DNA of 64,000 bases from an uncultured Chloroflexota bacterium (GTDB lineage Bacteria > Chloroflexota > Dehalococcoidia > GIF9 > AB-539-J10), in assembly GCA_903884455.1 (NCBI GenBank), contig CAISEW010000019.1:31752-95751 (forward strand), written 5' to 3'. This document shows, in pieces, positions 6,858 to 26,167 of the stretch (within the stretch, counting starts at the first letter, position 1; every line of letters begins with the position of its first letter). The notes below the pieces were generated by a model that saw only the letters and a program-made list of their open reading frames with translations, was not told the DNA's origin and searched no databases. The position numbers and the translations under genes are program-made.

Positions 6858-6880
6858 CGTATTACAGCAGGTAGGAGCAA

Positions 6881-7567: not shown

Positions 7568-7569
7568 CA

Positions 7570-9656: not shown

Positions 9657-9658
9657 GA

Positions 9659-10862: not shown

Positions 10863-11318
10863 CTATTCATTTAATTCTTGCAGCACCATCTTAACTACTT
10901 CGGGAATTGCCTGTTCCACTTTGGGCGTGCATTTCTCGCTGAAGTTAGTAATGTCTTTTGCCTCCACAGCGAATATAGTGATCTCTTGAGGCATTGCCAA
11001 GTTGAGCATCTTCCCTAATTCCAGAGCGGTAACCAGGTTTACTTGATGAGGTGAGGAAAAGTGTTTGGTGAGGGAGAAGTCTTCAGTCCCCATACGATAT
11101 ATCTGGCCGGTATTCCCTTCCTTGGTTTGGATGGCATCAATGATAATAACTTTATCATAGCCGACAATAGAATCTAAAAGGCTAAGGCCAGCTGCACTTG
11201 TTTCAGCTACAGTTACCTGGGGGTTGTTGAGTTGGTTTGCCACCTCGTGCGCCACCTGAATCCCCACGCCATCGTCAGATAAAATAGGATTCCCTAACCC
11301 TAAAACCAGGGTTTTCAT
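10863..11318 (-). CDS. [NiFe] hydrogenase maturation endopeptidase
   Basis: 151 aa. LGLGNPILSDDGVG N-terminus and a conserved ...SPHQ... segment (HycI/HyaD/FrhD family). Immediately downstream of the large subunit. Confidence 0.8.
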   Translation of the reverse strand: MKTLVLGLGNPILSDDGVGIQVAHEVANQLNNPQVTVAETSAAGLSLLDSIVGYDKVIIIDAIQTKEGNTGQIYRMGTEDFSLTKHFSSPHQVNLVTALELGKMLNLAMPQEITIFAVEAKDITNFSEKCTPKVEQAIPEVVKMVLQELNE

Positions 11319-11337
11319 TTCGATTTGCGAAGACTTG

Positions 11338-12807
11338 TTAAGAGATGCCCTGGCTCAGTTTCTTAACCTCATTGCCCTGGGCATCATAAATGGTCACTTC
11401 CAAAGGCAGCTGCCCGGGCAAAGCGTGTGTAGCACAAGACATACATGGGTCATAGGGGCGCCATGCCATCTCAATACGGTTAAGTAATCCCTCAGTTATC
11501 TTTACTCCGGGCTTTATGAGATCTTCGGCTGCTTTCTTAATTGACATGAATAAAGGAGCATGGTTATTGGTAGTGCCCACGATCAAGTTGCACTTCTTTA
11601 TAACCCCTTTTTCGTCAGTTATGTAATGATGGGTGAGAGTGCCCCTCGGTGCCTCCACAATACCTACCCCTTCATCAGGCGTCGCCGTCGGTATGTTGCG
11701 AATATCCGGGCTGGTTATTTCCGGATCTCGGCTAAGCTCCAGCAACCTTTCAGCAGCATAAAGAAGTTCAATCAGGCGTGCCCAGTGGGTCGCCAGAGTA
11801 TAGTTAGCTGGCTTGCCTCCCAGAGTGGAGTACATCCTTTCATATTCTTGCTGGGCTAGAGGAGTTGCCATGCCATCGGCAGCATTCAGCCGGGACAGAG
11901 GTGTGGCTCGATACACTCCACTGTCTTTGCCATCAACAAAACCTTTCCAGCCAATTTTCTTGAGATAAGGAAACTTGAGATATGTCCAGGGCTCGACTCG
12001 TTCAGCTATATGTTCCAGATATTCCCGGGGAGCATACTTGCAGAACTCTTTGCCATCAGGGCCAACCACACGAACTTTACCATCATAAAAGTTGACCTTA
12101 TTGTTTTTATCGACTAAGCCCATATTATAGGACTTTTGGGTAAAGGTATCGCTCAGGATCATGTCCAAGTAGGTTTTATTCTTGAGAACAACATCGTCGA
12201 AAACTTTGAGCGTTAATTTGGCGAACTCTATCGATCCTTTGGCTATCTCCTCTATCTTGGCTCTTTCCTCTTCATTTATGGCCCTGCTCACACCGCCAGG
12301 CAGTCCAAAACAAGGGTGTATTGGACGGCCACCAACTGTCTGGATAATCCAGTGATTTTGTTTACGGGTATTGATTACAGCACCACCTAGCTCCAATCCT
12401 ACCTTGCCGATTACTCCAAGGATATTGCGTTCCGCAGGTGAAGCGTCCGGCCCCATAACAAAATCAGGTCCAGCGAGAATGTAAAAGTGGGTGGTATGGT
12501 CAGTTACGTAGAAAGCACTATAAAGGAGCTCACGCAGCTTTTTGGCAGTGCTGGTTGGTTCGACATGAAACAGGTCATCTAAGGCTTTGGTTGCTGCCAT
12601 GTGGTGGGCTTCAGGGCAAACGCCACAGATACGCTGAGTTATCTGGGGCATATCCTCAGCTATGCGGCCTTCAGAAAATTTCTCAAACCCTCTGAGTTCG
12701 GGAATCTGAAGATAGGTATTGGCTACACTGCCATCCTCATTGAGAAAGATGGTAATCTTGCCATGGCCTTCAAGACGGGTAATGGGATCAATCGTTATCT
12801 TCTTCAT
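11338..12807 (-). CDS. mvhA: [NiFe] hydrogenase large subunit, group-3 (Mvh/Vhu-like)
   Basis: RLEGHGKI, QRICGVCPEAHH (RxCGxCxxxH) and C-terminal DPCMSCATHA (DPCxxCxxH). No signal peptide or membrane partner. Linked to MvhG- and MvhD-like genes. Confidence 0.85.
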   Translation of the reverse strand: MKKITIDPITRLEGHGKITIFLNEDGSVANTYLQIPELRGFEKFSEGRIAEDMPQITQRICGVCPEAHHMAATKALDDLFHVEPTSTAKKLRELLYSAFYVTDHTTHFYILAGPDFVMGPDASPAERNILGVIGKVGLELGGAVINTRKQNHWIIQTVGGRPIHPCFGLPGGVSRAINEEERAKIEEIAKGSIEFAKLTLKVFDDVVLKNKTYLDMILSDTFTQKSYNMGLVDKNNKVNFYDGKVRVVGPDGKEFCKYAPREYLEHIAERVEPWTYLKFPYLKKIGWKGFVDGKDSGVYRATPLSRLNAADGMATPLAQQEYERMYSTLGGKPANYTLATHWARLIELLYAAERLLELSRDPEITSPDIRNIPTATPDEGVGIVEAPRGTLTHHYITDEKGVIKKCNLIVGTTNNHAPLFMSIKKAAEDLIKPGVKITEGLLNRIEMAWRPYDPCMSCATHALPGQLPLEVTIYDAQGNEVKKLSQGIS

Positions 12808-13763
12808 TTTATTCTTGCCCTCCTAAGTAGTGAATCTGGCAGACTGTAACGGTAGAAAGTGCCTGCCGGGTCAGGAATATCGTCAATTATCTTTTGAATC
12901 TCCTCAGGGTCGTTGGAGTCAATGATAGACGAGAGAGCACTCAAAAAATGAGCTCCCTGGTCAATTACTCCTTCCACTGGTCCATAACAGCCAGTGCAAC
13001 GCATATTGGCCTGAGGGCAGAGAGCACCACAGCCACCCCGAGTAGCCACGCCGTAGCACAAGAATCCCTGTTCCAGTAGACACCGTTCCGCCTCAGGGAT
13101 TTTTTCGTAAGCTCGATAGAACTTTTTGATTTTCTTTTCCTCTTTCTTACGGGGACACTCATCGCAAACAGCCTTTATCGAATGACTTATGACAGTCCCT
13201 TTCGGTGGTAACTTGCCTGTAATCAAAGCTTCGAGGGCAAGCCAGGTAGTCCTTTCCTCCGGGGGACAACCAGGAACGAAATAATCCACATCTACGGTTT
13301 GGGCTAAGGTTTTAACTGTATCATAAAGCTCAGGAAGCTCAAGCTCACCCTCAGGTACTTTAACTTTCGTCTGAGGGAAAATTTTCTTAGGATTGTCAGT
13401 TGACGGCGTTTCAATGTAGGCACGTTCGAATGTCATCTGCCGGTTGTAGAAATTGGACAGCCCGGGGATACAGCCTTCATAAGCACAAGAGCCATAGGCT
13501 ATCATTACCTTGGATTTGGCTCGCAGGAGATGGGCCATGTGCTCGTTCTCTTCATTCCGAATAGCTCCGTTGAAAAGACAGACATCTACACTTTTATCAG
13601 GCATCTTCTCTACGTCAGCATACTTGAAATCCAGGCCCACCGGCCAGAACACGATGTCGGCAACTTCAGCTAGCTTCAGTATCTTTTCATGTATAGCCAG
13701 AGTCGCAATCTCACATCCACCACAACTAGCCGCCCAATAAAGAGCTATCTTAAGTTTAGCCAT
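12804..13763 (-). CDS. mvhG: [NiFe] hydrogenase small subunit (MvhG-like) with Cys-rich C-terminal Fe-S region
   Basis: ASCGGCEIA near the N-terminus, [18 protein letters not shown], and C-terminal CDECP / [15 protein letters not shown]...RCTGCYGP. No Tat signal. Confidence 0.8.
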
Positions 13764-14199
13764 GTTTTGCCTCCTTAGAACTCTGCTTGGAAGGACCTAA
13801 CGAACTTGGCCCAAGGTTTCTTACGGTTTGAGTAAAATTATTAGTTACCTCAGCAAATCTTGCTCCTTCAGACGCGGAAACCCACTCCAGCCGAACTCTT
13901 TCTTCCTCTATCCCAAACTGTTTCAACATCTTCTTCAGCAGCGGGATACGACGCATTGTCTTGTAATTTCCTTCAATGTAGTGGCAATCGCCAGGATGGC
14001 AACCAAGAACTAACACGCCATCAGCACCAATGCTGAGTGCCTTAAGCACAAAGAGAGGATTTACCCTGCCGCTACACATCACTCTGATTACCCTTATGTT
14101 GGGAGAATACTGTATTCTGGAAGTGCCAGCCAGGTCAGCACCAGCATAAGAGCACCAATTACAGCAAAAAGCTACTATTTTTGGTTCAAAGTTATCCAT
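13756..14199 (-). CDS. mvhD: MvhD-type hydrogenase iron-sulfur subunit (copy 1)
   Basis: [18 protein letters not shown] and GCHPGDCHY, hallmark MvhD/FlpD motifs. Confidence 0.85.
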
Positions 14200-14318
14200 C
14201 TATCCTCCTAATTAAACAAAAAGGGTAGTCCTGATCCACCCTTACCTGCCAGCCTGATAACACAAGCCCGCAATGATAGCACGTCTGTCCAAAAAAAACA
14301 ACCCTCCAAATATCCACG

Positions 14319-15731
14319 TCAGTTAGAATTTCTCAACCATGTATCAATATCCGTAGCTGCTCGCCGGCCTGCCCCCATGGCGCTAATAACCGTGGCTGCC
14401 CCAGTAGCCATATCTCCCCCACACCAAACTCTGTCCTTGCTCGTCCTCCCTGTGGCCTCATCGGTCAATACGGTGCCCCACTTAGTGAGTTTAAGCCCTT
14501 TGGTTGTTGAGGGAATAATCGGATTAGGCCTTGTGCCCAGAGCAGGGATTGCCGTATCTATCTCCATTATGAACTCAGAGCCTGGCTTTTTAATGGGCCG
14601 TGGCCGGCCACTTGCATCAGGCTCACCTAGTTCCATTTCATGTAACTCCACTGCCTTGACTCTACCTCGCCCATCACCGAGGAACTTGCTGGGATTGGTC
14701 AAAAGCTTGAAAATGACTCCCTCTTCTTCGGCATTCTCTCTCTCTTCAAGTCTGGCAGGCATCTCCGCTTTGGAGCGCCGATAGATAATATAAACTTCTT
14801 CTGCTCCAAGTCTCAAAGCACATCTGGAGGCATCCATAGCTACATTTCCGGCGCCAAATACTGCCACCCGCTTCCCTACTTGTATTGGAGTATCATACTC
14901 AGGGAAGAGGTATGCTTTCATCAGGTTTGTCCGAGTAAGAAATTCATTAGCAGAATAAATACCACTCAGGTTCTCCCCGGGGATATCTAGGAACATTGGC
15001 GCCCCAGCCCCGGGAGCTAAGAAGACGGCATCAAAACCATTTTCCAGAAGCTCATCTACAGTAGCTATTTTGCCGATAACATGATCAAGCTTGATTTCCA
15101 CACCCAGTGATTTCACATAATCGACCTCACCTTGAACGATCATCTTGGGCAATCTAAACTCGGGGATGCCGTACATCAGTACCCCACCGGCCACGTGCAG
15201 TGCCTCAAAAATAGTGACTCTGTACCCAAGCTTTGCTAGGTCAGCGGCACAGGTTAGACCTGCTGGCCCAGAACCAATTATAGCCACCTTCTTACCATTG
15301 AAGCTTATTTGCCCCTTTTGCTGTTTCGTAATTTCTGGGTGAGCTCTTTCCCAATCAGCCACATATCGCTCCAATCTGCCAATAGCAATCGGGCCGCCTT
15401 TTTTGGCCAGGTTACAAGTCATCTCGCATTGTGTTTCCTGAGGGCAAACACGACCACAAATGCCGGGGAGGCTATTCTTGCTCTTAAGTATTCTTACTGC
15501 CTCGGGCATATCACCTGCCCCTATTGCCTTTATAAATTCGGGGATGTCCACATTGACCGGGCAACCCCCCTTGCAACCAGCTTTCTTGCATGCAATGCAA
15601 CGACTGGCTTCCTCCAGAGCTTTCTCGTCGGTATATCCCAGAGCTACTTCGTTGAAATTCCTCTTCCTTACTTCCGGAGCCTGCTTTGGTATCGGCACTC
15701 GGTTTAAATTCAGTTTTGATTTTTCAGCCAT
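14319..15731 (-). CDS. nfnB: NfnB/GltD/SudA-type NADPH-dependent oxidoreductase, large subunit
   Basis: 470 aa. N-terminal Cys clusters (CIACKKAGCKGGCP; CGRVCPQETQCEMTC). Two Rossmann motifs (IIGSGPAGL, VFGAGNVAMD). Paired with an NfnA-like gene directly upstream in the transcription direction. Confidence 0.8.
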   Translation of the reverse strand: MAEKSKLNLNRVPIPKQAPEVRKRNFNEVALGYTDEKALEEASRCIACKKAGCKGGCPVNVDIPEFIKAIGAGDMPEAVRILKSKNSLPGICGRVCPQETQCEMTCNLAKKGGPIAIGRLERYVADWERAHPEITKQQKGQISFNGKKVAIIGSGPAGLTCAADLAKLGYRVTIFEALHVAGGVLMYGIPEFRLPKMIVQGEVDYVKSLGVEIKLDHVIGKIATVDELLENGFDAVFLAPGAGAPMFLDIPGENLSGIYSANEFLTRTNLMKAYLFPEYDTPIQVGKRVAVFGAGNVAMDASRCALRLGAEEVYIIYRRSKAEMPARLEERENAEEEGVIFKLLTNPSKFLGDGRGRVKAVELHEMELGEPDASGRPRPIKKPGSEFIMEIDTAIPALGTRPNPIIPSTTKGLKLTKWGTVLTDEATGRTSKDRVWCGGDMATGAATVISAMGAGRRAATDIDTWLRNSN

Positions 15732-15742
15732 TTTTACACTAC

Positions 15743-16612: not shown

Positions 16613-16629
16613 ATCAGCCTCCAGAACAT

Positions 16630-18685: not shown

Positions 18686-18690
18686 GGCCC

Positions 18691-21423
18691 TTACTTGCCT
18701 CCTGCTATAGCTTCAGCAGTTCTGCCTGCTGCCCCTGAGGCCTGGGTTACAGAATCCGGAATATCCCGGGGACTATGGACATAACCACAGGCAAAAATGC
18801 CCGGCCTTGTAGTATCCAGCGGTTGTACCAATTTATCTGGAACCTTTACAAAGCCATCTTCGTCTAACTCTATACCGAGTATTTTCGCCAATTCTTCGGT
18901 GATTTGAGGAACCATGGCTTGGGCAAGAACCACCAGTTCCGCCTCAAAGCACTTTACTTCTCCGCTGATGGTTTCCTCATACCTAATAATAGGGTTATCA
19001 TTCTCAGGGTTAACTTCAATCCTGCCAGGACGCCCTCTAATATAAGTCACATTGTATTCTTTTTTAGCCCTGGCAATGTATTCCTGGAACCTTTTGCCAA
19101 CAGCTCTCATATCCATGTAGAAAATGGTGGATTTTGTTCCAGGATGGTGCTCGAAAGCCAGCATTGCCTCCTTGGTGGCGTGCATACAGCAAACACTGGA
19201 ACAGTAAGCTTTATTCCTGAAATCACGAGAGCCGACACATTGGATAAAAGCTATATTTTCAGGTAACCTGCCATCCGAAGGACGCCTAAGTACTCCCATA
19301 GTGGGCCCGGAGGCAGCAGTAAATCTCTCAAATTCCATGGCAGTAATCACATTCTTTATTTTCCCATAGCCATATTCTGTCAGTGATGAAATATCGTATA
19401 AGCCAAGCCCTGAAGCGACGATTATCGCGCCTACTTCTAGTGTAATGGCCTCATCCTTCATCGTATAGACTATCGCTTTGGGTTCACATCGCCGTTCACA
19501 TTCATGACACTCTATGCACCCTTCGATTTGTCCAGCCAGACAGCGTGAAGCTTCCTCTACGGCTTCCTCTGGAGAATATCCAAAAGCCACTTCACGAAAG
19601 TTCTGCACCCTCTCTTTAACAGGTCCTTCCCTCATCTCCACCTTATTTCTGGAAGGAAAGCGCTTTTTGCACTCCTCTATCTCTTCCCGAGACAACTTCT
19701 CTGGTTCCTTTCTTGGTTCTTCACCCACAAGAGGTTGTCCCGTCAGGTATTGGTGGATAGAGCGAGCTGCTTTTTCCCCTGCTGCAATAGCATCAATTAC
19801 AAAAGCAGGCCCGGTCACCACATCGCCTCCGGCAAATATTCCTTTAATATTGGTCGCCCCTGTTTTGGTATCAATTTCTATCGTGCCTCTCTTAGAAAGT
19901 GAAACTCCTAACTCCTTGACAAAATCTGTTTCTGGAGCCTGCCCCAATGCCGCAATCACTGTATCCACGGGGATAGTAAATTCAGAACCCTTAATGGGGA
20001 TGGGGCGAGGACGACCACTGGCATCTGGTTCTCCAAGCTTCATCCGCACACACTCCATCTTGGCAAGTTTTTTGTTCTCGGTAGAGAAGCGGTTGGGAGT
20101 GGTCAGGAACTCAATCTTCACCCCTTCTTTTTCCGCTGCTGTTACTTCTTCCTCAGAAGCTGGCATCTCAGTGCGAGAACGACGATAAACGATGGTTACT
20201 TCTTTTGCTCCCAGTCGCTTCGCTGTGCGGGCACAATCGATAGCTGTATTACCTCCACCGATCACCGCGACTTTCCTTCCCACATTTACTTTTTTCCCGA
20301 GACTTATAGCACGGAGAAATCCTATCCCATCCATTACTCCGGGAATATCTTCACCCTCCACTCCAAGCTTCATACCACCGTGTGTTCCCACAGCAACGAA
20401 AATAGCATCATAGTTTTCTTTTAATTTTTTGGTGGTAATATCTTTACCAACCTGAACGCCCGTTTTTATCTCCACGCCAAGCTTCTGGATATAGCCTATC
20501 TCCTGGCGTAAAATTTCCTTGGGAAGGCGATATTCGGGTATGCCGACACGAAGCATACCTCCGGGTTCAGGAAGAGCTTCTAAGATAGTTACATTATGAC
20601 CCCTTAGGGCAAGGTCATTAGCAGCAGCAAGCCCTGCTGGACCTGCGCCTATAATCGCTACCTTTTTATCTGTTTTTGCCACTACCGGGACTTCAAGTTC
20701 TTCGATATTCCATTGGTCCCCGGGAACTCTCTTAAGGTCGCGGATACACAGTGGCTCATCTATTTGCCCGCGATTACAGACTTCCTGGCAGGGGGCATAG
20801 CATACCCGCCCAACACTTGCAGGTAGGGGATTTGTCTCTCTTATAAGCTTATAAGCTGCTTTGTATTGTCCTTCAGCAATGAGCTTGATGTACCCGGGCA
20901 CATTAGTATGGACAGGGCAAGCATCCATACAAGCCGTTTTGCACGGGCGCTCCTCTCTTTTATCTATAACACATTTCTTAGGAACAGCCTGCGGAAAGTA
21001 CAGGTATATGGCCTTTCTGTTTGCAATCCCCTGATCAAATTCGTTTGGTATAATGACGGGGCATCCTTCTACACAGAGGCCACATCCCGTACATTTGTTC
21101 CAATCAACAAAAGAGGCCTTTTTCCTGATCTTAACCTTGAACTTCCCTATTCCTCCCGCGACTTTTTCCACTTCAGAATAAGTTAAGAGTTCTATATTGT
21201 GATGGGAACTGGCCTCAATCATCTTGGGGGCAAGGATACACATGGCACAATCATTAGTGGGGAAGGTCTTATCCAGTTGTGCCATCCGCCCCCCGATGCT
21301 GGGCGACTTTTCCACCAAATATACTTTAAAGCCCATATTGGCCAGGTCAAGTGAAGCCTGAATCCCAGCTATGCCACCACCTACTACTAGTACCGATTTG
21401 CGTCCGTTTTCACTGTTACTCAT
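18691..21423 (-). CDS. HdrA-like flavoprotein with an NfnB/GltD-like module inserted (HdrL-like, 910 aa)
   Basis: It starts directly at the FAD motif VVGGGIAGIQASLD, then FPTNDCAMCIL and CTGCGLCVEGCP. About 500 aa collinear with NfnB follow (CKTACMDACP, GRVCYAPCQEVC, IIGAGPAGLAAA, VIGGGNTAIDCA, LGEPDASGRPRPI). Then CIECHECERRCEP and QCVGSRD...YCSSVCCMHA. No N-terminal or C-terminal ferredoxin domain. Confidence 0.8.
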   Translation of the reverse strand: MSNSENGRKSVLVVGGGIAGIQASLDLANMGFKVYLVEKSPSIGGRMAQLDKTFPTNDCAMCILAPKMIEASSHHNIELLTYSEVEKVAGGIGKFKVKIRKKASFVDWNKCTGCGLCVEGCPVIIPNEFDQGIANRKAIYLYFPQAVPKKCVIDKREERPCKTACMDACPVHTNVPGYIKLIAEGQYKAAYKLIRETNPLPASVGRVCYAPCQEVCNRGQIDEPLCIRDLKRVPGDQWNIEELEVPVVAKTDKKVAIIGAGPAGLAAANDLALRGHNVTILEALPEPGGMLRVGIPEYRLPKEILRQEIGYIQKLGVEIKTGVQVGKDITTKKLKENYDAIFVAVGTHGGMKLGVEGEDIPGVMDGIGFLRAISLGKKVNVGRKVAVIGGGNTAIDCARTAKRLGAKEVTIVYRRSRTEMPASEEEVTAAEKEGVKIEFLTTPNRFSTENKKLAKMECVRMKLGEPDASGRPRPIPIKGSEFTIPVDTVIAALGQAPETDFVKELGVSLSKRGTIEIDTKTGATNIKGIFAGGDVVTGPAFVIDAIAAGEKAARSIHQYLTGQPLVGEEPRKEPEKLSREEIEECKKRFPSRNKVEMREGPVKERVQNFREVAFGYSPEEAVEEASRCLAGQIEGCIECHECERRCEPKAIVYTMKDEAITLEVGAIIVASGLGLYDISSLTEYGYGKIKNVITAMEFERFTAASGPTMGVLRRPSDGRLPENIAFIQCVGSRDFRNKAYCSSVCCMHATKEAMLAFEHHPGTKSTIFYMDMRAVGKRFQEYIARAKKEYNVTYIRGRPGRIEVNPENDNPIIRYEETISGEVKCFEAELVVLAQAMVPQITEELAKILGIELDEDGFVKVPDKLVQPLDTTRPGIFACGYVHSPRDIPDSVTQASGAAGRTAEAIAGGK

Positions 21424-21441
21424 TTTTTGATAAGCCTACCT

Positions 21442-22587
21442 TCATTTTTCAATCGCATTTGCTACCAGATTTGCCAAATCCATTATCTCAATCTTTGGAG
21501 TTGATCGATGCTCCTCCCCTTTATCCATCATGGCACATCTGAAATGCGTCTGGCATTTAGGACAAGCGGTTATGAGCAACTCTGCCCCTGTTTCCGTCGC
21601 TTCACATAACCTTTCGGCCCTTAGCATATTGGAATACGAGTCGCAATTGGTAAAAGCACTGGTACCACAGCAAATGGATTCCAATCCACTGTGTCTCATC
21701 TCAACCAGTTCAATGCCAGGAATTGACTCGATCACCTTCCGCGGGGCATCATACACACCTAAATGTCTTCCTAACCGACAAGGATCCTGATAGGTGACCT
21801 TTTTCTTGATTTCCTTAAATTTCACTCCGTTTTGCCCTATCTTCTCCGCCAATAATTCAGAGATATGCAACACTTCACACCTTAAATCCACATAATTGGG
21901 ATAGTCTAGTTTAAATGTGCGATAACCCTCGGGGCAGGAAAAAACTATCTTCTTGACCCCCGCCTCTTTAATTTGAGCGGCATTGTGCTCGGCCAGTTTC
22001 TTAAATGTCTCTATATCGCCAGTCCAAAGTGCGTCATGACCGCAGCATCTCTCATTAGGAAGCAGCTTGGGCTCGATCCCCAGCAAGTTCAAGGTCTTGA
22101 GGCTTGCCTTGGTTATGTCCAGAGCATTGAATTCAATGTCTTCAAAGATTGGCGCAAAATATGGAGCACATCCCACCCAGAGAAGAACATCGCTGTTTTC
22201 TGAAACACGATACTCCTTGGAAAGCCATTCCAGTCTCTTTTGCTTGATCGTAGGGCTTGTCATAAGCCTTGCCAGAGATTGCAGTTGTCCAGAGTGGGCA
22301 CAAACTCCATGTTGCCCGTTGTCTTGGGCCATGCTCCTGGCTTTTCGTACAAAGATTGGAAAGTCAATATCACTAGGACATTCTTTTTGGCAAGTATAGC
22401 AAGTCAGGCAGGAAAAGAGCTCCCGATCTAACAACAGCTCATCCCCAAAGCCCAGAAGAGCATTCTCAATCATCTGTCGCGGAGAGAAAGATGAATCGTA
22501 TCTAGCGACGGGACATATGCTCGTACACTTGCCACATTCCAGGCAGTAGTAAGTCTTGGTTTCTTGAATAATATCCTCTAAGTTCAC
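21442..22587 (-). CDS. Soluble HdrC-HdrB fusion (HdrD-like) Fe-S protein, copy 1
   Basis: N-terminal CLECGKCTSICP and CLTCYTCQKECP. Two CCG-domain motifs (ERCCGHD, ICCGTSAF). No transmembrane segment. Confidence 0.75.
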   Translation of the reverse strand: MNLEDIIQETKTYYCLECGKCTSICPVARYDSSFSPRQMIENALLGFGDELLLDRELFSCLTCYTCQKECPSDIDFPIFVRKARSMAQDNGQHGVCAHSGQLQSLARLMTSPTIKQKRLEWLSKEYRVSENSDVLLWVGCAPYFAPIFEDIEFNALDITKASLKTLNLLGIEPKLLPNERCCGHDALWTGDIETFKKLAEHNAAQIKEAGVKKIVFSCPEGYRTFKLDYPNYVDLRCEVLHISELLAEKIGQNGVKFKEIKKKVTYQDPCRLGRHLGVYDAPRKVIESIPGIELVEMRHSGLESICCGTSAFTNCDSYSNMLRAERLCEATETGAELLITACPKCQTHFRCAMMDKGEEHRSTPKIEIMDLANLVANAIEK

Positions 22588-23012
22588 GCCAGAGCCTCCG
22601 TTTTTACTTTAAAAGGTGAAGGTCCTATCTTCTTGAGTTGCTCCACCATTTCTTTGATTATCCGAGCAAACACTACTCCTTCAGATGCAGCCACCAACTC
22701 ACGCCTGAGGCGTTCATCCTCCAGACCAAGCACATGAAGCACCTTTCTTAATTTGTCAACAGTGGCATCGCACTTCACCGGGCCATCGATATAGTGGCAA
22801 TCGCTATGATGACAACCTGCAACGAGCACTCCATCAGCGCCACCCTCAAAAGCCTTCAGTACGTATAGAGGGTTTACCATGCTACTACACATTACCCTTA
22901 CAATCCTGACATTCGGTGGATAATGAACGCGGCTTGTTCCAGCTAAATCGGCAGCAGCATAAGTGCACCAATTGCAGCAAAAAGCAACGATTTGAGGTTC
23001 GAATTCAGCCAT
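22584..23012 (-). CDS. mvhD: MvhD-type iron-sulfur subunit (copy 2)
   Basis: [18 protein letters not shown] and GCHHSDCHY. Its start overlaps the hdrA stop (ATGA). Confidence 0.85.
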   Translation of the reverse strand: MAEFEPQIVAFCCNWCTYAAADLAGTSRVHYPPNVRIVRVMCSSMVNPLYVLKAFEGGADGVLVAGCHHSDCHYIDGPVKCDATVDKLRKVLHVLGLEDERLRRELVAASEGVVFARIIKEMVEQLKKIGPSPFKVKTEALA

Positions 23013-25003
23013 CAGGACACCTCCGTCAAGGCAGCAACTTCAGCCAATATCTCATCTTGGGTGAAGTGTTTTATTGATATTGCACCTGTCGGGCAGACGA
23101 CAGCGCAGGCTCCACAACCTTTGCAGAGAGTTTCATTTATACTGGAGACCAAAGTCCCGTTCTTGCTAGCAACCTTAGGAGCATGAAAAGCGCAGATTTC
23201 TTCACAGCGTCCGCACCCATGGCAAATGCTTTCATCTACGGTTGATACGGCAGCTTCAGTTGTGATTGTGCCCTTACTTATCAATGACAAGGCTTTGGCT
23301 GCTGTTGCTTCAGCTTGCGCTACAGTATCAGGAATATCTCTCGGGCCCTCACAGCAACCAGCAATAAAAATGCCATCCGTTGGAGTAGCCACAGGGTCGA
23401 GCTTGACATGTCTCTCCAAGAAGAAGCCATCTGCCCTACGATTAAGATTAAAGATCCTGGCGACATTCTCTGCGTCGGAGCGCGCTTCCAGAGCAGAACA
23501 CAGTATAACCATGTCCACGGGAACCCGAACTAGCTTACCTAAGAGTGTATCTTCACTGATTACAACCAACTTGCCTTTCTCTTCATCGCTCAAAGCTTCA
23601 TCTGTAATCTTGGCCACCTTCCCTCGTATGAAATTCACTCCCTCCTCGGAACAGCGTTTATAGAATTCCTCATAGCCCTCTCCAAAGCAGCGCATGTCAA
23701 TGTAGAATTGATACACATCGGCTTTGCTGAGCTCTTTTGCCAGGTGAGCATATTTGAGCGCATACATGCAGCAAACTCGGGAGCAATACTCATGATAATT
23801 TTGGTCGCGACTGCCAACGCAGTGTACAAGGGCTATCCTTTCCGGCTCCCGCCCATCCTTCAATAGAATCTTACCCCCAGTTGGCCCCGCGGCGCAGGTC
23901 ATCCTTTCAAAGTGGAGCCCGGTTAGTACATTATCGTATTTCCCATATCCGTATTGAGGTATCACAGAGGGGTCAAACTGGTCGTACCCGGTAGCCACGA
24001 TTATCGTGCCCACATCAAACTCAACAATCTGATCAGTTTGCTTGAGAAGAGTCTCCGGGGTTATAGCCTGAGCTTCACAGACTTTTATACAGGCTCCGCA
24101 TTTCTTTCCATCTGATTTGATGTAAGCACAAAGGTTAGGATCTACTACTGCAAGATGGGGAATAGCTTGAGCGAAAGGAATATAAACTGCCTTTCTCTTG
24201 GCTAAGCCCATCTCAAATTCGCTATCGGTCTTCCACGGGCATTTCTCTTCACACACGTTGCAGCCAATACATTTGCTCTCATCTATATGTCTAGCCTTTT
24301 TCCTCACCTTAATCTTGAAATTGCCTATAGAGCCCGAAACCTCCTCTACCTCGCTATAGGTGAAAAGCTCAATAAAGGGATGATGCCCCACGTCAGACAT
24401 TTTGGGAGTAAGAATACATTCAGAGCAATCTAAGGTAGGGAAGGTCCTATCAAGCTGTATCATATGGCCACCAATACTGGGGTCCCTTTCTACCAGATAC
24501 ACCTTATTCTGCCCGTTGGCGATATCCAACGCTGCCTGCATCCCCGCGATGCCACCGCCAACAACCAACACGTTGGGATTAAGTGGTGCTTCCTTAACAA
24601 CAAGAGGTTCATGACGGTAAACCCGCTTCACTGCTGCCCTCACTAAATCCTTTGCCTTCTTCGTAGCCAATTCCTTGTCGTCATGAACCCAAGAGCAATG
24701 TTCCCTGATGTTGGCATGTTCATATAGGTAAGGATTTAGTCCACCGTCCGCAACAGCCTTGCGGAACGTAGGCTCGTGCATCCTCGGTGAACAGGAAGCT
24801 ACAACAACCCGATTGAGCCCCAGTTTTTTAATATCATTCTTGATGAGGTCCTGTCCCGGGTCAGAACACATATACCTGTACTCGCGGGAAATCACCACAG
24901 AGGGCAAGGTCGCTGCATATTTGGCTACCTCTTCTACATTTACTACGCCAGCGATGTTAAACCCGCAGTGGCAGATGTAAACGCCAATCCTTATCTCTTC
25001 CAT
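23012..25003 (-). CDS. hdrA: Heterodisulfide reductase subunit A (full-length architecture)
   Basis: 663 aa. N-terminal GVYICHCGFNIAG domain, VVGGGIAGMQAALD, FPTLDCSECIL, inserted ferredoxin (CIGCNVCEEKCP ... CGACIKVCEAQ), HCVGSRD...YCSRVCCMYA, and a C-terminal 2x[4Fe-4S] (CHGCGRCEEIC, CKGCGACAVVCP). Confidence 0.9.
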   Translation of the reverse strand: MEEIRIGVYICHCGFNIAGVVNVEEVAKYAATLPSVVISREYRYMCSDPGQDLIKNDIKKLGLNRVVVASCSPRMHEPTFRKAVADGGLNPYLYEHANIREHCSWVHDDKELATKKAKDLVRAAVKRVYRHEPLVVKEAPLNPNVLVVGGGIAGMQAALDIANGQNKVYLVERDPSIGGHMIQLDRTFPTLDCSECILTPKMSDVGHHPFIELFTYSEVEEVSGSIGNFKIKVRKKARHIDESKCIGCNVCEEKCPWKTDSEFEMGLAKRKAVYIPFAQAIPHLAVVDPNLCAYIKSDGKKCGACIKVCEAQAITPETLLKQTDQIVEFDVGTIIVATGYDQFDPSVIPQYGYGKYDNVLTGLHFERMTCAAGPTGGKILLKDGREPERIALVHCVGSRDQNYHEYCSRVCCMYALKYAHLAKELSKADVYQFYIDMRCFGEGYEEFYKRCSEEGVNFIRGKVAKITDEALSDEEKGKLVVISEDTLLGKLVRVPVDMVILCSALEARSDAENVARIFNLNRRADGFFLERHVKLDPVATPTDGIFIAGCCEGPRDIPDTVAQAEATAAKALSLISKGTITTEAAVSTVDESICHGCGRCEEICAFHAPKVASKNGTLVSSINETLCKGCGACAVVCPTGAISIKHFTQDEILAEVAALTEVS

Positions 25004-25015
25004 CTCATTACTCCA

Positions 25016-26167
25016 TTATCCTATTGCTTCAGCAACGAGTTCAGCGATATCTTTAACCTGCATAGTCTCTGCCTTGCCCATGGAGAGCACACTATCCCTA
25101 TAGTTGAGAAAACAGTAGGGACAAGCTATAGCTATGATATCAGCGCCTTTCCCCACAGCTTGTTCCACCCTTATGTCAGAGAACCTTTCCCCTTTCGGGG
25201 TATCCATCCAGATCCTACCACCGCCACCTCCACAACAAAGGCCATTCTCACGAGCATCAGGAAATTCTATTAATTCCACGCCGGGAATGCTTTGCAGAAT
25301 CTTCCTTGGCTCATCATAGATCTCATTGTGCCTCCCCAAATAACAGGGGTCAGAATAAATTACCTTTTTGTTTATCTTCTTAGAGAGTTTCAATTTCCCT
25401 TCGTCGATAAGTGAAGCTAGGTATTGGGTGATATGAACCACTTCAAACTTGCCTCCAAGCTCGGGATACTCGTTCTTAAAAGTGTGGTAGCAGTGCGGTG
25501 AAGAAACTACCACAGTTTTGACACCATTACTGGTAAAGAGATTAATATTGTTTTGGGCCAGACTTTGAAATGTATCTTCATGCCCGGCTTTTCTAATTGC
25601 CTCACCACAGCATTTTGCTTCAGTACCTATAAGGCCATAATCAATCCCAAGCTTATTGAAGATTGTGGCGGTAGATCGAGATACTGCTTTTACATCAGGA
25701 TCATAGGACGGAACACAGCAAGGGAAATAAAGTATTTTGGTGCCCGAAGCAAATTTTTTCACCCCTAGGTCCTTAGCCCAGTCATTTCGCTTTTCCGGTG
25801 CTTCACCAAGTGGATTACCTACACCAGCGATGTTCTTAGCCGAAATTCTCAGGGCATCAGGGACAACGCCGATACCCAGGCCAGCTACGGCTCGTCGTAT
25901 AGCCCTCATAACATCTATTATCTCGACGCCCCGGGGGCAGCGTTGCACACAAGCTCGACAAGTGACACAAGTCCAGACATCCTCACTCCCAAAATCAACT
26001 GCCCCAAGCTGAGCTTCATGCATGATGCGGCGAACGAGAAAACTTCGAACCAAATTCCAGGGACAAATACCGGTGCACAGACCACACTGGTAACACAATT
26101 TGAGTGGTTCACCACCAGCCTCGAGTATCACGTCTGTAGCTTCTTTGTAAGGACTTAGCACTTCCAT
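25016..26167 (-). CDS. Soluble HdrC-HdrB fusion (HdrD-like) Fe-S protein, copy 2
   Basis: CYQCGLCTGICP and CVTCRACVQRCP. CCG motifs (KCCGEAI, LCCGGGGG). No transmembrane segment. First gene of the minus-strand cluster. Confidence 0.75.
   Translation of the reverse strand: MEVLSPYKEATDVILEAGGEPLKLCYQCGLCTGICPWNLVRSFLVRRIMHEAQLGAVDFGSEDVWTCVTCRACVQRCPRGVEIIDVMRAIRRAVAGLGIGVVPDALRISAKNIAGVGNPLGEAPEKRNDWAKDLGVKKFASGTKILYFPCCVPSYDPDVKAVSRSTATIFNKLGIDYGLIGTEAKCCGEAIRKAGHEDTFQSLAQNNINLFTSNGVKTVVVSSPHCYHTFKNEYPELGGKFEVVHITQYLASLIDEGKLKLSKKINKKVIYSDPCYLGRHNEIYDEPRKILQSIPGVELIEFPDARENGLCCGGGGGRIWMDTPKGERFSDIRVEQAVGKGADIIAIACPYCFLNYRDSVLSMGKAETMQVKDIAELVAEAIG

What the first reader, a model, noticed from the sequence alone, without database searches (positions are those of the whole stretch)
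10863..26167. 15-kb co-directional Hdr/Mvh/Nfn supercluster: a possible multi-branch electron-bifurcating system with an unknown disulfide substrate
Seen in sequence: thirteen minus-strand genes with mostly overlapping or very short gaps. In transcription order they are HdrCB fusion, full HdrA, MvhD, a second HdrCB fusion, a 910-aa HdrA with an NfnB-like insert, a 564-aa HdrA-like protein, an hdrA relic, NfnA, NfnB, MvhD, MvhG, MvhA and the hydrogenase protease. Established: MvhADG-HdrABC performs flavin-based electron bifurcation in methanogens, coupling H2 to ferredoxin and CoM-S-S-CoB. NfnAB is a bifurcating NADH/ferredoxin:NADP oxidoreductase. Inference: in a bacterium with no methanogenesis genes in view, three different HdrA flavoproteins, two CCG-domain modules, an NAD(P)H module and a cytoplasmic hydrogenase in one locus suggest one or two megacomplexes. 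These would link H2, NAD(P)H and ferredoxin to an unidentified thiol/disulfide (or other CCG-site) substrate. The window contains no HdrE membrane anchor and no DsrC, MetF/MetV or FlxABCD partner, so none of the known bacterial Hdr-like contexts explains it.
Basis: partly seen in the sequence, partly recalled or inferred. Interest (0 to 1): 0.72.

Follow-up and report, generated by a model that had tools for sequence, protein, structure and literature searches.

The report
Hydrogenase-linked Hdr electron-bifurcation gene array
An uncultured Dehalococcoidia bacterium carries a tightly packed, widely conserved gene array for a cytoplasmic hydrogenase, two heterodisulfide-reductase-like electron-splitting modules (one made of two complementary half-proteins with a built-in NADPH port) and an Nfn transhydrogenase; every part is a known kind, but the high-potential substrate has never been identified.

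Summary
Window 10863-26167 (minus strand) holds 12 intact genes and one hdrA relic, exactly as listed. The organism is a Dehalococcoidia MAG, and more than 30 related MAG contigs share this gene order.

- The "three HdrA flavoproteins" are really two functional units. One is a canonical HdrA1. The other is a probable obligate heterodimer of the 910-aa HdrL and the 564-aa HdrA3. Their domain and cysteine losses are complementary, the two genes are adjacent across several phyla, and they are fused in two phyla.
- The "NfnB-like" insert is a GltD/StnC-type NADP(H) module (Lys cluster ligand), so it is probably not a second bifurcation site.
- The relic is the scar of a 3.4-kb deletion of a third HdrA-MvhD-HdrCB module that relatives still carry.
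- Both HdrCB proteins lack one cysteine of the canonical HdrB signature and resemble EtfD/BamD. The acceptor may therefore be a protein such as ETF rather than a disulfide.

This context is not unprecedented. GltD-inserted HdrA ("HdrL", "type III HdrA"), including clusters with mvhADG, and tandem HdrA heterodimers have been described, but only as genomic predictions. I found no biochemical characterisation. The direction of electron flow and the acceptor remain inferred.

The parts
25016..26167 (-). HdrCB1: fusion of an HdrC-like part (two CxxCxxCxxxC motifs) and an HdrB-like part (two CCG domains). Probable high-potential exit of module 1.
   Evidence: Pfam CCG 4e-32 plus Fer4 families. The best NCBIfam match is TfrB; the HdrB model scores only 34 bits against a cutoff of 345. 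Cysteine map. The best solved-structure match is EtfD 9ojn, 201 bits. Aligned ligands are C151, C186, C187, S223(!), H225, C226 and C275, C311, C312, C349, C352. The 'SPHC' motif is conserved in 20 of 20 orthologues.
23012..25003 (-). HdrA1: canonical four-domain HdrA (N-terminal domain, FAD/TrxR domain, inserted ferredoxin domain, C-terminal ferredoxin domain).
   Evidence: Aligns end to end with HdrA of 5ODC, 737 bits. It keeps Cys194/Cys197 ('LDCSECILTPK') and Lys409. NCBIfam HdrA2 model E=5e-249.
22584..23012 (-). MvhD1: [2Fe-2S] adaptor of module 1.
   Evidence: PF02662 FlpD E=3.5e-50. Overlaps hdrA1 by 1 nt and hdrCB2 by 4 nt.
21442..22587 (-). HdrCB2: second HdrC/HdrB fusion. Probable high-potential exit of module 2.
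   Evidence: CCG 2e-27. Ligands aligned to EtfD are C140, C181, C182, C218, E220, G221(!) and C270, C306, C307, C342, C345. The 'CPEG' motif is present in 39 of 43 orthologues. This gene precedes hdrL in 27 of 39 loci.
18691..21423 (-). HdrL (type III HdrA, truncated form). It has an FAD/TrxR core with the Cys59/Cys62 pair, and an inserted ferredoxin domain split by a ~480-aa GltD/StnC-like NADP(H)-FAD-2x[4Fe-4S] module. It has no N-terminal domain and no C-terminal ferredoxin domain.
   Evidence: Matches 5ODC HdrA residues 145-291 and 291-568 only. The insert is closest to 9bov_A (annotated 'molybdopterin oxidoreductase', StnC-like in length and alignment register), StnC (8oh5_C) and the NfnA chain of a Bfu-type NfnABC (9n5u_A). 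PRK12771 scores 559.7 bits, above its cutoff. The proximal-cluster ligand is Lys ('LKR'), as in StnC K170. The NADPH-type fingerprint GGGNTA...YRRS is present.
16991..18685 (-). HdrA3: the complementary HdrA half. [quoted passage not shown] It lacks the inserted ferredoxin domain and both Cys194 and Cys197.
   Evidence: Matches 5ODC residues 2-236 and 308-650; the motif 'NQEAVKLIKPL' replaces 'NDCSICILAPK'. None of 58 orthologues has Cys or Sec at this site. The gene lies 5 nt after hdrL. It directly follows the truncated HdrL in 39 loci. The two are fused into one ORF in L037 and in L054/L055.
16636..16802 (-). hdrA relic: the first ~55 codons of a third-module hdrA, carrying a 1-nt frameshift. 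The deletion breakpoint lies between 16636 and 16635.
   Evidence: Searches show the sequence. In blastn, window 17100-16636 is colinear with L047:3039-3504, and window 16635-16503 then jumps to L047:6927-7059 and L063:6508-6640. The junction shows only ~3 nt of microhomology.
15743..16612 (-). NfnA (small subunit; FAD, [2Fe-2S], NAD(H) site). The true start is the ATG at 16612.
   Evidence: PRK06222 353 bits, cutoff 220. The start follows.
14319..15731 (-). NfnB (large subunit; bifurcating FAD, two [4Fe-4S] clusters, NADPH site).
   Evidence: TIGR01316 572 bits, cutoff 472. It has the Glu ligand 'LER' typical of NfnB.
14221..14243 (-). Terminator-like hairpin plus T-run in the 119-nt nfnB-mvhD2 gap. 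It may mark an operon boundary or attenuator.
   Evidence: 8-bp stem followed by TTTGTTT. The number of such sites in the region is no higher than in shuffled sequence, so this is weak evidence.
13756..14199 (-). MvhD2: [2Fe-2S] adaptor linking the hydrogenase to HdrA.
   Evidence: FlpD E=4e-58. It lies directly after hdrA3 in lineages without nfnAB (L020, L023, L024, L027, L030, L037, L064; after a gap of about 1.4 kb in L061).
12804..13763 (-). MvhG: [NiFe]-hydrogenase small subunit.
   Evidence: VhuG model E=8e-74; Oxidored_q6.
11338..12807 (-). MvhA: group-3c-like [NiFe]-hydrogenase large subunit.
   Evidence: The best solved-structure match is MvhA 5odc_F, 384 bits. VhuA model E=2e-119. 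The motifs are L1 RICGVCPEAHH and L2 DPCMSCATH, followed by a 28-residue C-terminal tail that the protease would remove.
10863..11318 (-). Hydrogenase maturation endopeptidase.
   Evidence: TIGR00072 118 bits, cutoff 47.
10149..10808 (-). Nitroreductase-family flavoprotein, possibly the last gene of the mvh transcription unit. Whether it belongs to the system is uncertain.
   Evidence: PF00881 1e-34. The gap to the protease gene is 54 nt. The same neighbour is found at 90-92% identity in L002-L004.

Best explanation
The locus encodes a cytoplasmic, Mvh-type (group 3c-like) [NiFe]-hydrogenase together with two Hdr-type flavin-based electron-bifurcating modules and a separate NfnAB transhydrogenase. 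The host is a Dehalococcoidia bacterium.

Module 1 (HdrCB1-HdrA1-MvhD1) is a canonical homodimeric HdrA unit with an ordinary ferredoxin exit.

Module 2 (HdrCB2-HdrL-HdrA3, served by MvhD2-MvhG-MvhA) is an asymmetric unit.
- HdrL supplies the flavin next to the Cys59/Cys62 pair, and the inserted ferredoxin domain.
- Only the heterodimer can therefore assemble one complete HdrA wiring.
- In HdrL the ferredoxin exit is extended, and probably capped, by a GltD/StnC-like module with FAD, two [4Fe-4S] clusters and an NADP(H) site. This arm therefore communicates with NADP(H) instead of, or in addition to, free ferredoxin.

[quoted passage not shown] One branch then goes through the TrxR-domain cluster to HdrCB2 and a high-potential acceptor. 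The other goes through the Cys pair, the N-domain cluster, the inserted-ferredoxin clusters and the GltD clusters and FAD to NADP+.

NfnAB then equilibrates NADPH, NADH and ferredoxin. The high-potential acceptor is unknown. The altered CCG sites make a protein partner (ETF-like) or a non-CoM/CoB thiol system as likely as a small disulfide.

Shown: gene content, domain and ligand complementarity, synteny, the fusions and the deletion scar. Inferred: physical complexes, direction of electron flow and the acceptor.
For: - Family and domain assignments.
- Complementarity against the 5ODC HdrA structure. HdrL spans residues 145-568 and keeps Cys194/Cys197. HdrA3 spans residues 2-236 and 308-650 and has lost both cysteines. 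All three HdrA proteins keep Lys409.
- Conservation. Every truncated HdrL orthologue keeps 'NDC[AS]MC' and none of 58 HdrA3 orthologues has Cys at that site.
- Synteny. Of 59 GltD-inserted HdrA genes with room downstream, 39 are followed directly by HdrA3. Nineteen of the other 20 are full-length ~990-aa forms that have their own N-terminal domain (and, where the sequence was inspected, their own C-terminal ferredoxin domain), most of them followed by MvhD. The remaining one, L051, is a rearranged locus.
- Gene fusions of HdrL and HdrA3 in Ignavibacteria (L037) and WOR-3 (L054/L055), with Sec at the Cys197 position in the latter.
- The minimal arrangement HdrCB-HdrL-HdrA3-MvhD-MvhG-MvhA-protease, without Nfn, occurs in L023 and in part in L037, L061 and L072.
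- The insert has Lys where NfnB has Glu. Structure-based work on StnC shows that this type of FAD does not bifurcate (PMC10482914). The NADPH-type fingerprint is present.
- Precedents in the literature. Complementary tandem or fused HdrA heterodimers were proposed for ANME (PMC9012536) and seen in the BamE structure, where one FAD bifurcates next to a Cys59-Cys62 pair and the second FAD is structural (bioRxiv 10.64898/2026.04.10.717634). The GltD insert was predicted to block the ferredoxin site in type III HdrA, whose cluster in Bathyarchaeota includes mvhADG (PMC12054007).
- Tight or overlapping gene spacing.
Against: - There is no expression, protein or activity data for any member of this locus type.
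- HdrA3 keeps the FAD-binding motif and the Lys409 equivalent, so a second active flavin cannot be excluded.
- Sending low-potential electrons to NADP+ wastes driving force. The opposite assignment, with NAD(P)H as the mid-potential donor and H+/H2 as the low-potential couple, is thermodynamically neater and has been proposed for the archaeal homologues (PMC12054007).
- In the Desulfobacterota loci the same HdrL-HdrA3 pair sits next to an AOR/BamB-like tungsten enzyme with no hydrogenase. The pair is therefore a general module, and its partners, and perhaps the direction of flow, differ by context.
- Promoter and terminator hits are at chance level, so the operon structure is unproven.
- It cannot be told which MvhD serves which module.
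- The sequence is a MAG contig. The closest relative's contig (L001) breaks at the hdrA3-nfnA junction.
Confidence: 0.6

Rival explanations
1. The architecture is the same but the roles are reversed. NAD(P)H, entering through the GltD module, is the mid-potential donor to the bifurcating flavin. Protons are the low-potential acceptor, with H2 evolved by MvhAG via MvhD, and HdrCB reduces the high-potential acceptor. The enzyme could also run as the reverse confurcation. It would let a fermenter dispose of NAD(P)H electrons as H2.
For: The redox potentials fit: NAD(P)H at -320 mV lies between H+/H2 at -414 mV and a disulfide or ETF-type acceptor. The same hypothesis was put forward for type III HdrA with mvhADG in Bathyarchaeota (PMC12054007). 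In the Desulfobacterota loci HdrL-HdrA3 has no other obvious donor module. Dehalococcoidia MAGs are generally described as fermenters or acetogens (PMC3971608, PMC11650866).
Against: [quoted passage not shown] A continuous supply of oxidised acceptor would be needed, and none is in view.
Confidence: 0.3
2. All thirteen gene products, including NfnAB and both Hdr modules, form one megacomplex with several bifurcation sites. In it the HdrL insert acts as an NfnB that pairs with NfnA.
For: All genes point the same way and are closely packed. nfnAB lies between hdrA3 and mvhD2 in many Dehalococcoidia. A hierarchical coupling of two bifurcation modules has a precedent in BCRII (10.64898/2026.04.10.717634).
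Against: - nfnAB is absent from the same position in L020, L023, L024, L027, L030, L037, L061 and L064.
- nfnAB encodes a complete, bona fide NfnAB pair scoring above curated cutoffs.
- The HdrL insert scores below the NfnB cutoff (395 against 472 bits) and carries Lys, not the Glu of NfnB.
- The modules vary in number from two to four between close relatives, and one has been deleted here. That is hard to reconcile with a fixed stoichiometric megacomplex.
- There is a 119-nt gap with a terminator-like hairpin after nfnB.
Confidence: 0.08
3. The terminal CCG proteins are electron-transfer ends, not disulfide reductases. They would hand the high-potential electrons to a protein carrier such as ETF, as BamD and EtfD do. 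On this view the 'unknown disulfide' does not exist.
For: - HdrCB1 and HdrCB2 match EtfD (9ojn) far better than methanogen HdrB: 201 and 104 bits against 33 bits or less.
- Each lacks one Cys of the N-terminal CxxC.
- HdrCB1 keeps the His that completes coordination of the non-catalytic cluster in EtfD (PMC13083937).
- These deviations are conserved in orthologues.
- BamD, an HdrBC fusion with a modified distal cluster, was seen bound to ETF in cells (10.64898/2026.04.10.717634).
Against: - Both proteins keep the 'CC' doublet in both CCG domains, which EtfD has lost in its first domain.
- HdrCB1 has an extra Cys150 that could compensate.
- Four HdrCB2 orthologues have a full CxxC.
- No etf genes lie in the window.
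- Other bacterial HdrB-like proteins with imperfect motifs are thought to act on DsrC or lipoate-binding proteins (PMC5947623 discusses DsrC).
Confidence: 0.3
4. The array is a decaying or redundant set of paralogues. The relic would show that the locus is being lost and that only a canonical Mvh-Hdr remains functional.
For: One module has been deleted and its remnant is frameshifted. Module number varies among relatives.
Against: All 12 remaining genes are intact, with every cofactor-binding motif present. They are 80-99% identical to orthologues across many MAGs. The HdrL-HdrA3 pair is conserved across phyla.
Confidence: 0.04

Closest known systems
MvhADG-HdrABC of hydrogenotrophic methanogens (structure 5ODC and later cryo-EM entries)
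   Same: MvhA, MvhG and MvhD are present, and HdrA1 has four domains and aligns end to end with 5ODC HdrA (737 bits). It keeps the Cys194/Cys197 pair and Lys409. The MvhA motifs and a maturation protease are present.
   Different: The host is a bacterium (Dehalococcoidia). HdrB and HdrC are fused, and the N-terminal CCG site lacks one Cys. The HdrB model scores 34 bits against a cutoff of 345. There is a second module built from HdrL and HdrA3, and nothing in view relates to CoM-S-S-CoB.
HdrL / 'type III HdrA' (GltD- or NfnB-inserted HdrA): D. autotrophicum HdrL1-3 and its tandem hdrL/hdrA locus VIII (PMC2702500); S. fumaroxidans HdrABC/HdrL (PMC5947623); ANME-1 HdrA9-11 (PMC9012536); Bathyarchaeota type III HdrA with mvhADG (PMC12054007)
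   Same: The insert sits at the same point, inside the inserted ferredoxin domain. MvhD and, in some cases, MvhAG are neighbours. Relatives of the window protein were retrieved from Desulfobacterota and Bathyarchaeota.
   Different: The published cases are genomic or proteomic predictions only. Here the truncated form is shown to be strictly paired with a Cys-less HdrA3, and it sits in a 2-4 module array with NfnAB. The fingerprint looks NADPH-type, whereas PMC12054007 argued for NADH.
BamE/BamDEF of class II benzoyl-CoA reductase (bioRxiv 10.64898/2026.04.10.717634) and the fused two-HdrA proteins of Moorella-type HdrABC-MvhD-MetFV
   Same: Two HdrA-like halves form one asymmetric unit. A Cys59-Cys62 pair lies next to the bifurcating FAD at the N-terminus of the first half, and HdrL has the same numbering. 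An MvhD-like adaptor and an HdrBC-fusion exit with a modified cluster are also shared.
   Different: Here the two halves are separate polypeptides. There is no tungsten BamB/BamC partner and no BamGHI, although Desulfobacterota relatives of the pair do sit next to an AOR-type enzyme. Both halves keep the Lys, whereas the structural FAD of BamE has Gln.
NfnAB and StnABC transhydrogenases
   Same: The window encodes a bona fide NfnAB pair scoring above curated cutoffs. The HdrL insert shares the GltD fold, the two [4Fe-4S] motifs and the NADPH fingerprint.
   Different: The insert carries the Lys ligand of StnC, whose FAD does not bifurcate (PMC10482914), not the Glu of NfnB. It has no NfnA-type partner in lineages that lack nfnAB.
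EtfD (mycobacterial ETF:menaquinone oxidoreductase, 9ojn; PMC13083937)
   Same: It is the best solved-structure match for both HdrCB proteins. The second CCG domain is fully conserved, and HdrCB1 shares the His of the C-x-H-C motif.
   Different: HdrCB1 and HdrCB2 are soluble, with no transmembrane or haem domain. They keep the CC doublet in the first CCG domain. No ETF is encoded nearby.

Membership tests
Mvh-type (group 3c) [NiFe]-hydrogenase | Large subunit with N-terminal RxCGxC and C-terminal DPCxxC nickel ligands; closest relatives are MvhA/VhuA; a small subunit, MvhD and a maturation protease are encoded alongside | tested here: met
   RICGVCPEAHH and DPCMSCATH plus a cleavable tail. 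The best solved-structure match is MvhA 5odc_F, 384 bits. VhuA, VhuG and VhuD are the best NCBIfam models, though all score below their equivalog cutoffs. The protease model TIGR00072 scores above its cutoff. No HydDB classifier was available.
Methanogen-type HdrABC (CoM-S-S-CoB reductase) | HdrA with four domains, the Cys194/Cys197 pair and Lys409 | tested here: met
   Met by HdrA1 only. HdrL and HdrA3 each lack two of these features.
Methanogen-type HdrABC (CoM-S-S-CoB reductase) | HdrB with two complete CCG signatures (C...CC...CxxC twice, 10 Cys) for two noncubane [4Fe-4S] clusters | tested here: not met
   In the N-terminal CxxC, HdrCB1 has S223 in place of the first Cys and HdrCB2 has G221 in place of the second. 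The HdrB models score 27-34 bits against cutoffs of 345-450.
Methanogen-type HdrABC (CoM-S-S-CoB reductase) | Presence of the CoM/CoB/Mcr pathway that supplies the heterodisulfide | not testable with these tools
   None is present in the 64-kb window, and the organism is a Dehalococcoidia MAG. The whole genome could not be read.
HdrL / type III HdrA | A GltD/NfnB-like FAD-NAD(P)H module with two [4Fe-4S] motifs, inserted within the inserted ferredoxin domain of an HdrA | tested here: met
   The HdrA match breaks at 5ODC residue 291 on both sides of the insert. PRK12771 scores 559.7 bits, above its cutoff of 516. Cys motifs and the GxGxxA/YRRS fingerprint.
Heterodimeric (tandem or fused) HdrA | Complementary distribution of the N-terminal cluster domain and the Cys197 ligand between two adjacent or fused HdrA paralogues | tested here: met
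   Fusions occur in L037 and L054/L055.
Heterodimeric (tandem or fused) HdrA | Physical heterodimer sharing one [4Fe-4S] cluster | not testable with these tools
   No multimer prediction or experiment was available.
NfnAB transhydrogenase (genes 14319-16612) | An NfnA (PyrK-like; FAD, [2Fe-2S]) plus NfnB (GltD-like) pair scoring above curated cutoffs; Glu ligand on the proximal cluster | tested here: met
   PRK06222 scores 353 bits (cutoff 220) and TIGR01316 scores 572 bits (cutoff 472). 'LER' is present in all 20 NfnB sequences examined in the related loci.
NfnB (applied to the HdrL insert) | Score above the NfnB cutoff; Glu ligand; NfnA partner | tested here: not met
   TIGR01316 scores 395 bits, below the cutoff of 472. 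Lys replaces Glu in all inserts. The insert-bearing protein occurs without nfnA in several lineages.
Known bacterial Hdr partners (FlxABCD, MetFV, DsrC, HdrE, ETF) | Partner genes adjacent to hdr | tested here: not met
   The rest of the window is housekeeping: DnaK, PEPCK, tupABC, moaAC, NusB, FabD, TrxB-like, DnaB, DnaE, argJBD and others. This holds only for the 64-kb window.
Class II benzoyl-CoA reductase (BamB-I) | AOR-family tungsten subunit BamB with BamC next to the HdrA-like genes | tested here: not met
   Absent from the window. An AOR plus Fer4_11 pair does follow HdrL-HdrA3 in Desulfobacterota loci L067 and L044.

The most novel reading that the evidence does not exclude
The HdrL/HdrA3 heterodimer with MvhADG and HdrCB would be a new class of bifurcating hydrogenase. 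It would reduce NADP+ with trace H2 and be driven by co-reduction of a high-potential protein carrier (ETF-like) rather than a disulfide. The GltD cassette would act as a portable switch that converts the ferredoxin exit of any HdrA into a pyridine-nucleotide port. It would be moved between paralogues by recombination, as the presence or absence of the insert in orthologous HdrA1 at 82-86% identity suggests.
Probability: 0.2. Interest if true: 0.7.

Novelty: new variant of a known kind. Interest (0 to 1): 0.45.

Why it matters
Hdr-like gene clusters are among the most common unexplained redox systems in anaerobic bacteria and archaea, and their substrates outside methanogens are mostly unknown. 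This locus gives a clean, widely conserved case with specific hypotheses that can be tested:
- which two proteins pair up;
- which cysteine bridges them;
- that the pyridine-nucleotide module is of the non-bifurcating type;
- that the CCG end looks more like an ETF-interacting protein than a disulfide reductase.

Dehalococcoidia are abundant in sediments, peat and aquifers. How they couple H2, NAD(P)H and ferredoxin therefore bears on subsurface carbon and hydrogen cycling. However, the ideas are extensions of published genomic predictions, and nothing here overturns current understanding.

Tried and rejected
- Selenocysteine read-through as an explanation of the relic or of the short HdrA3 was rejected. 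All window genes end at ordinary stops with complete C-termini, and the relic is colinear with a deleted module in relatives. Sec does occur at the Cys197 position, but only in the WOR-3 loci.
- Assembly collapse between hdrA paralogues as the cause of the relic is judged unlikely, because the junction has only ~3 nt of microhomology. It is not fully excluded, because L001 breaks there.
- Promoter and terminator scans gave hit numbers equal to shuffled sequence. Only the hairpin after nfnB is worth noting.
- I looked for a conserved extra partner gene that might reveal the substrate and found nothing informative. L004 has a sigma-54 regulator and a cNMP-binding protein. L003 has a polyferredoxin-MvhD fusion. 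Only the Desulfobacterota loci gave a partner, an AOR-type enzyme.
- Rfam and tRNA scans of the window found only a Moco/tungsten riboswitch outside the locus.
- Structure prediction was not run. Only single chains can be predicted and no coordinates are returned, so it could not test the heterodimer.
- The large protein-database searches were not used, because the 78 genome loci already answered the questions about distribution.

Full report
**Observation.** The minus strand of window 10863-26167 carries 12 intact ORFs at exactly the coordinates given. Pfam and NCBIfam identify them, in order of transcription, as follows:
- HdrCB1: two 4Fe-4S motifs plus two CCG domains.
- HdrA1: full-length HdrA.
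- MvhD1.
- HdrCB2.
- A 910-aa HdrA interrupted by a GltD/NfnB-like module.
- A 564-aa HdrA-like protein.
- NfnA and NfnB, both above curated cutoffs.
- MvhD2, MvhG and MvhA.
- A hydrogenase maturation protease.

The 378-nt gap contains about 55 codons of an HdrA N-terminal domain with a 1-nt frameshift. The true nfnA start is the ATG at 16612. Gene spacing is -8 to +19 nt apart from the 378-nt and 119-nt gaps.

**Organism and conservation.** A scan of species-representative genomes with the 910-aa protein returned 78 loci. The closest, at 82-99% identity, are Dehalococcoidia/Chloroflexota MAGs from soils, peat, sediments and aquifers. Mapping 16 window proteins onto these loci shows the same order in many MAGs: HdrCB1-HdrA1-MvhD1-HdrCB2-HdrL-HdrA3-(...)-NfnA-NfnB-MvhD2-MvhG-MvhA-protease-nitroreductase. 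The array is also plastic. Relatives carry two to four Hdr modules. nfnAB is missing between hdrA3 and mvhD2 in several lineages (L020, L023, L024, L027, L030, L037, L061, L064). The simplest form is HdrCB-HdrL-HdrA3-MvhD-MvhG-MvhA-protease.

**The relic.** Ten loci carry a third module, HdrA-MvhD-HdrCB, between hdrA3 and nfnA. In blastn, window 17100-16636 is colinear with the end of hdrA3, the spacer and the first ~160 nt of that third hdrA (L047:3039-3504, L005:14326-14791). Window 16635-16503 then continues directly in the sequence just upstream of, and inside, nfnA (L047:6927-7059, L063:6508-6640). The relic is therefore the scar of a ~3.4-kb deletion. The junction (ATCAAG|GAAGTAATG) shows only ~3 nt of microhomology. 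That argues for a real illegitimate-recombination event rather than a repeat collapse, although the contig of the closest relative ends at this spot (L001).

**Two HdrA units, not three.** I aligned the three proteins to the solved HdrA of 5ODC.
- HdrA1 aligns end to end and keeps the Cys194/Cys197 pair ('LDCSECILTPK') and Lys409.
- The 910-aa protein (HdrL) covers only residues 145-568. It has no N-terminal cluster domain and no C-terminal ferredoxin domain. It keeps the Cys pair (C59/C62), and its inserted ferredoxin domain is split at residue 291 by the ~480-aa insert.
- The 564-aa protein (HdrA3) covers residues 2-236 and 308-650. It has the N-terminal and C-terminal domains but no inserted ferredoxin domain, and the Cys pair is replaced by 'NQEAVKLIKPL'.

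In the methanogen enzyme the N-terminal cluster of one HdrA takes its fourth ligand, Cys197, from the partner chain. Complementary loss of the N-domain and Cys197 in tandem HdrA genes was proposed to mark obligate heterodimers in ANME archaea (PMC9012536). Here the pattern is exact and conserved:
- All truncated HdrL orthologues keep NDC[AS]MC, and none of 58 HdrA3 orthologues has Cys or Sec at that site.
- 39 of 59 GltD-inserted HdrA genes with sequence available downstream are followed directly by HdrA3.
- Nineteen of the other 20 are ~990-aa full-length forms with their own N-terminal domain; the one read in full (L002) also has its own C-terminal ferredoxin domain. Most of them are followed by MvhD. 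The remaining one, L051, is a rearranged locus.
- In Ignavibacteria (L037) and WOR-3 (L054/L055) HdrL and HdrA3 are fused into one reading frame. The WOR-3 protein has TGA (Sec) at the Cys197 position.

The recently described BamE of class II benzoyl-CoA reductase is a fused HdrA dimer. One of its FADs bifurcates next to a Cys59-Cys62 pair and the second FAD is structural (bioRxiv 10.64898/2026.04.10.717634). It gives a structural precedent. The HdrL-HdrA3 heterodimer is inferred, not shown.

**The insert.** It belongs to the GltD/NfnB/SudA superfamily but scores below the NfnB cutoff (395 against 472 bits) and above the PRK12771 cutoff. Its best solved relatives are 9bov_A (annotated 'molybdopterin oxidoreductase', and StnC-like in length and alignment register), StnC (8oh5_C) and the NfnA chain of a Bfu-type NfnABC (9n5u_A). 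At the position of the non-cysteine ligand of the FAD-proximal cluster, the window's true NfnB has Glu ('LER') whereas the insert has Lys ('LKR'), like StnC K170. The split holds in all inserts and all NfnB copies in the loci. Structure-function work on Stn concluded that this FAD does not bifurcate and simply shuttles electrons between NADPH and the cluster chain (PMC10482914). The dinucleotide fingerprint (GGGNTA...YRRS) matches the NADPH site of the neighbouring NfnB. The insert is therefore best read as an NADP(H) port wired in series with the inserted-ferredoxin clusters. A 2025 survey of archaeal HdrA ('type III HdrA', PMC12054007) reached a similar view from predicted structures. It noted that the insert may block ferredoxin access and that the Bathyarchaeota cluster includes mvhADG. 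A relative of that cluster is among my loci (L072). In close relatives the orthologue of HdrA1 itself carries the same kind of insert (L002 and eight others). Its flanks are 82-86% identical to the insert-less window HdrA1 in L002, L005 and L016, and 69-74% identical in the other six; insert-less orthologues range from 82% to 99%. The cassette is thus gained, lost or exchanged on short evolutionary timescales.

**The CCG end.** Both HdrCB proteins have two cubane motifs and two CCG domains. They match methanogen HdrB only weakly (33 bits or less) and match mycobacterial EtfD (9ojn) well, at 201 and 104 bits. Aligned to the EtfD ligands, the second CCG domain is complete in both. In the first CCG domain HdrCB1 reads S-P-H-C and HdrCB2 reads C-P-E-G where HdrB has C-x-x-C. 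These deviations are conserved in 20 of 20 and 39 of 43 orthologues. In EtfD the equivalent His completes the coordination of a non-catalytic cluster, and the protein takes electrons from ETF (PMC13083937). BamD, an HdrBC fusion with a modified distal cluster, was seen bound to ETF in cells (10.64898/2026.04.10.717634). Membership in the CoM-S-S-CoB reductase family is therefore not met. Neither option can be decided from sequence.

**The hydrogenase and Nfn.** MvhA is closest to MvhA of 5ODC (384 bits). It has both nickel-ligand motifs and a cleavable tail, and MvhG, MvhD and a protease are encoded alongside it. NfnAB is a complete, bona fide pair. Its variable presence and the hairpin-containing 119-nt gap after nfnB (weak evidence) suggest an independent enzyme that was inserted into an ancestral hdrA3-mvhD2 junction.

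**Mechanism.** The best-supported model is two Hdr-type bifurcating complexes that share, or alternate on, one Mvh hydrogenase, plus a free NfnAB.
- Module 1 is canonical and should reduce ferredoxin.
- In module 2 only the HdrL/HdrA3 heterodimer can build a complete wiring. [quoted passage not shown]
- The bifurcating FAD is next to the Cys pair. By analogy with BamE this is the HdrL flavin.
- The high-potential branch goes through the TrxR-domain cluster to HdrCB2.
- The low-potential branch goes through the Cys pair, the HdrA3 N-domain cluster, the HdrL inserted-ferredoxin clusters and the GltD module to NADP+.

At environmental H2 levels NADP+ reduction by H2 is roughly at equilibrium or endergonic, so coupling it to a high-potential acceptor would make sense. 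The main rival keeps the architecture but makes NAD(P)H the mid-potential donor and H+/H2 the low-potential couple (PMC12054007). It fits the redox potentials better and fits the structural roles of the two ferredoxin domains worse. In Desulfobacterota the same pair sits next to an HdrC-like protein, an AOR-family tungsten enzyme and an Fe-S protein. HdrL/HdrA3 therefore appears to be a portable module used with different partners.

**Comparison with what is known, and novelty.** All building blocks are known kinds. GltD-inserted HdrA has been named HdrL since 2009, including a tandem hdrL/hdrA locus (PMC2702500). It was detected in the S. fumaroxidans proteome under sulfate-reducing conditions (PMC5947623). 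It has since been catalogued in ANME-1 and Bathyarchaeota (PMC9012536, PMC12054007). I found no biochemical or structural characterisation of any such complex. This analysis adds five points:
- the strict pairing rule between the truncated HdrL and the Cys-less HdrA3, with gene fusions as support;
- the Lys/Glu distinction, which argues against a second bifurcation site;
- the EtfD/BamD-like CCG sites;
- the origin of the relic in a deletion;
- the modular gain and loss within the array.

I rate the locus a new variant of a known kind, of moderate interest.

Noticed in passing
window 5541-5674 (+), with 5629-10117: A Moco/tungsten riboswitch (RF01055, 74 bits) lies upstream of a tungstate-type ABC transporter (TupA-like, TupB-like, WtpC-like), followed by moaA and moaC. 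The annotated tupA-like ORF start overlaps the riboswitch, so the true start is probably further downstream.
   Followed up: partly
window 10149-10808 (-): A nitroreductase-family gene lies 54 nt downstream of the hydrogenase protease. The same neighbour is conserved at 90-92% identity in L002-L004, so it may be co-transcribed with mvhDGA.
   Followed up: partly
L067 14634-18266; L044 14582-18083: In Desulfobacterota the HdrL-HdrA3 pair is followed by an HdrC-like Fer4_8 protein, a small ORF, an AOR-family tungsten enzyme (646-660 aa) and a Fer4_11 Fe-S protein. This is a BamB/BamC-like context with no hydrogenase.
   Followed up: partly
L054 ~10160 and ~17723; L055: In-frame TGA (selenocysteine) at the Cys197-equivalent position of both the HdrL-HdrA3 fusion and a second HdrA in a WOR-3 genome.
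   Followed up: partly
L002 5026-8409 (also L005, L009, L014, L016, L020, L025, L026, L061): The orthologue of the window's HdrA1 carries a GltD-like insert (~1100 aa in L002, with N- and C-terminal domains intact). In L002, L005 and L016 the flanks are 76-86% identical to the insert-less window protein. The domain cassette is therefore present or absent between fairly close relatives.
   Followed up: partly
L003 14515-15708: A 397-aa fusion of polyferredoxin motifs with two FlpD/MvhD domains sits between hdrA3 and nfnA in one relative.
   Followed up: no
L004 18-1382 and 5618-6301: A sigma-54-dependent response regulator lies upstream of the hdr array, and a cNMP-binding protein with a rubredoxin-like N-terminus lies inside it. 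These are possible regulators.
   Followed up: no
nfnA across loci: NfnA occurs in two versions in the clade. One is 76-93% identical to the window protein and the other 45-54% identical, while the adjacent NfnB stays at 68-95%. This suggests replacement or recombination of nfnA alone.
   Followed up: no
L001 end (13013-13128): The 99%-identical MAG contig ends 116 nt after hdrA3, at the deletion-prone junction. This may reflect strain heterogeneity at this spot.
   Followed up: no
window 39075-47673 (-): A run of unusual genes: a serpin, a beta-propeller protein, an ECF-type sigma factor, a 653-aa OYE/2,4-dienoyl-CoA-reductase-like flavoenzyme and an RCC1-repeat protein with G+C up to 55%.
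   Followed up: no
window 28752-29918 (+), 35662-36741 (-), 36936-37988 (-), 38062-38532 (-): ORFs of 156-388 aa with no Pfam match at E<=1e-12.
   Followed up: no
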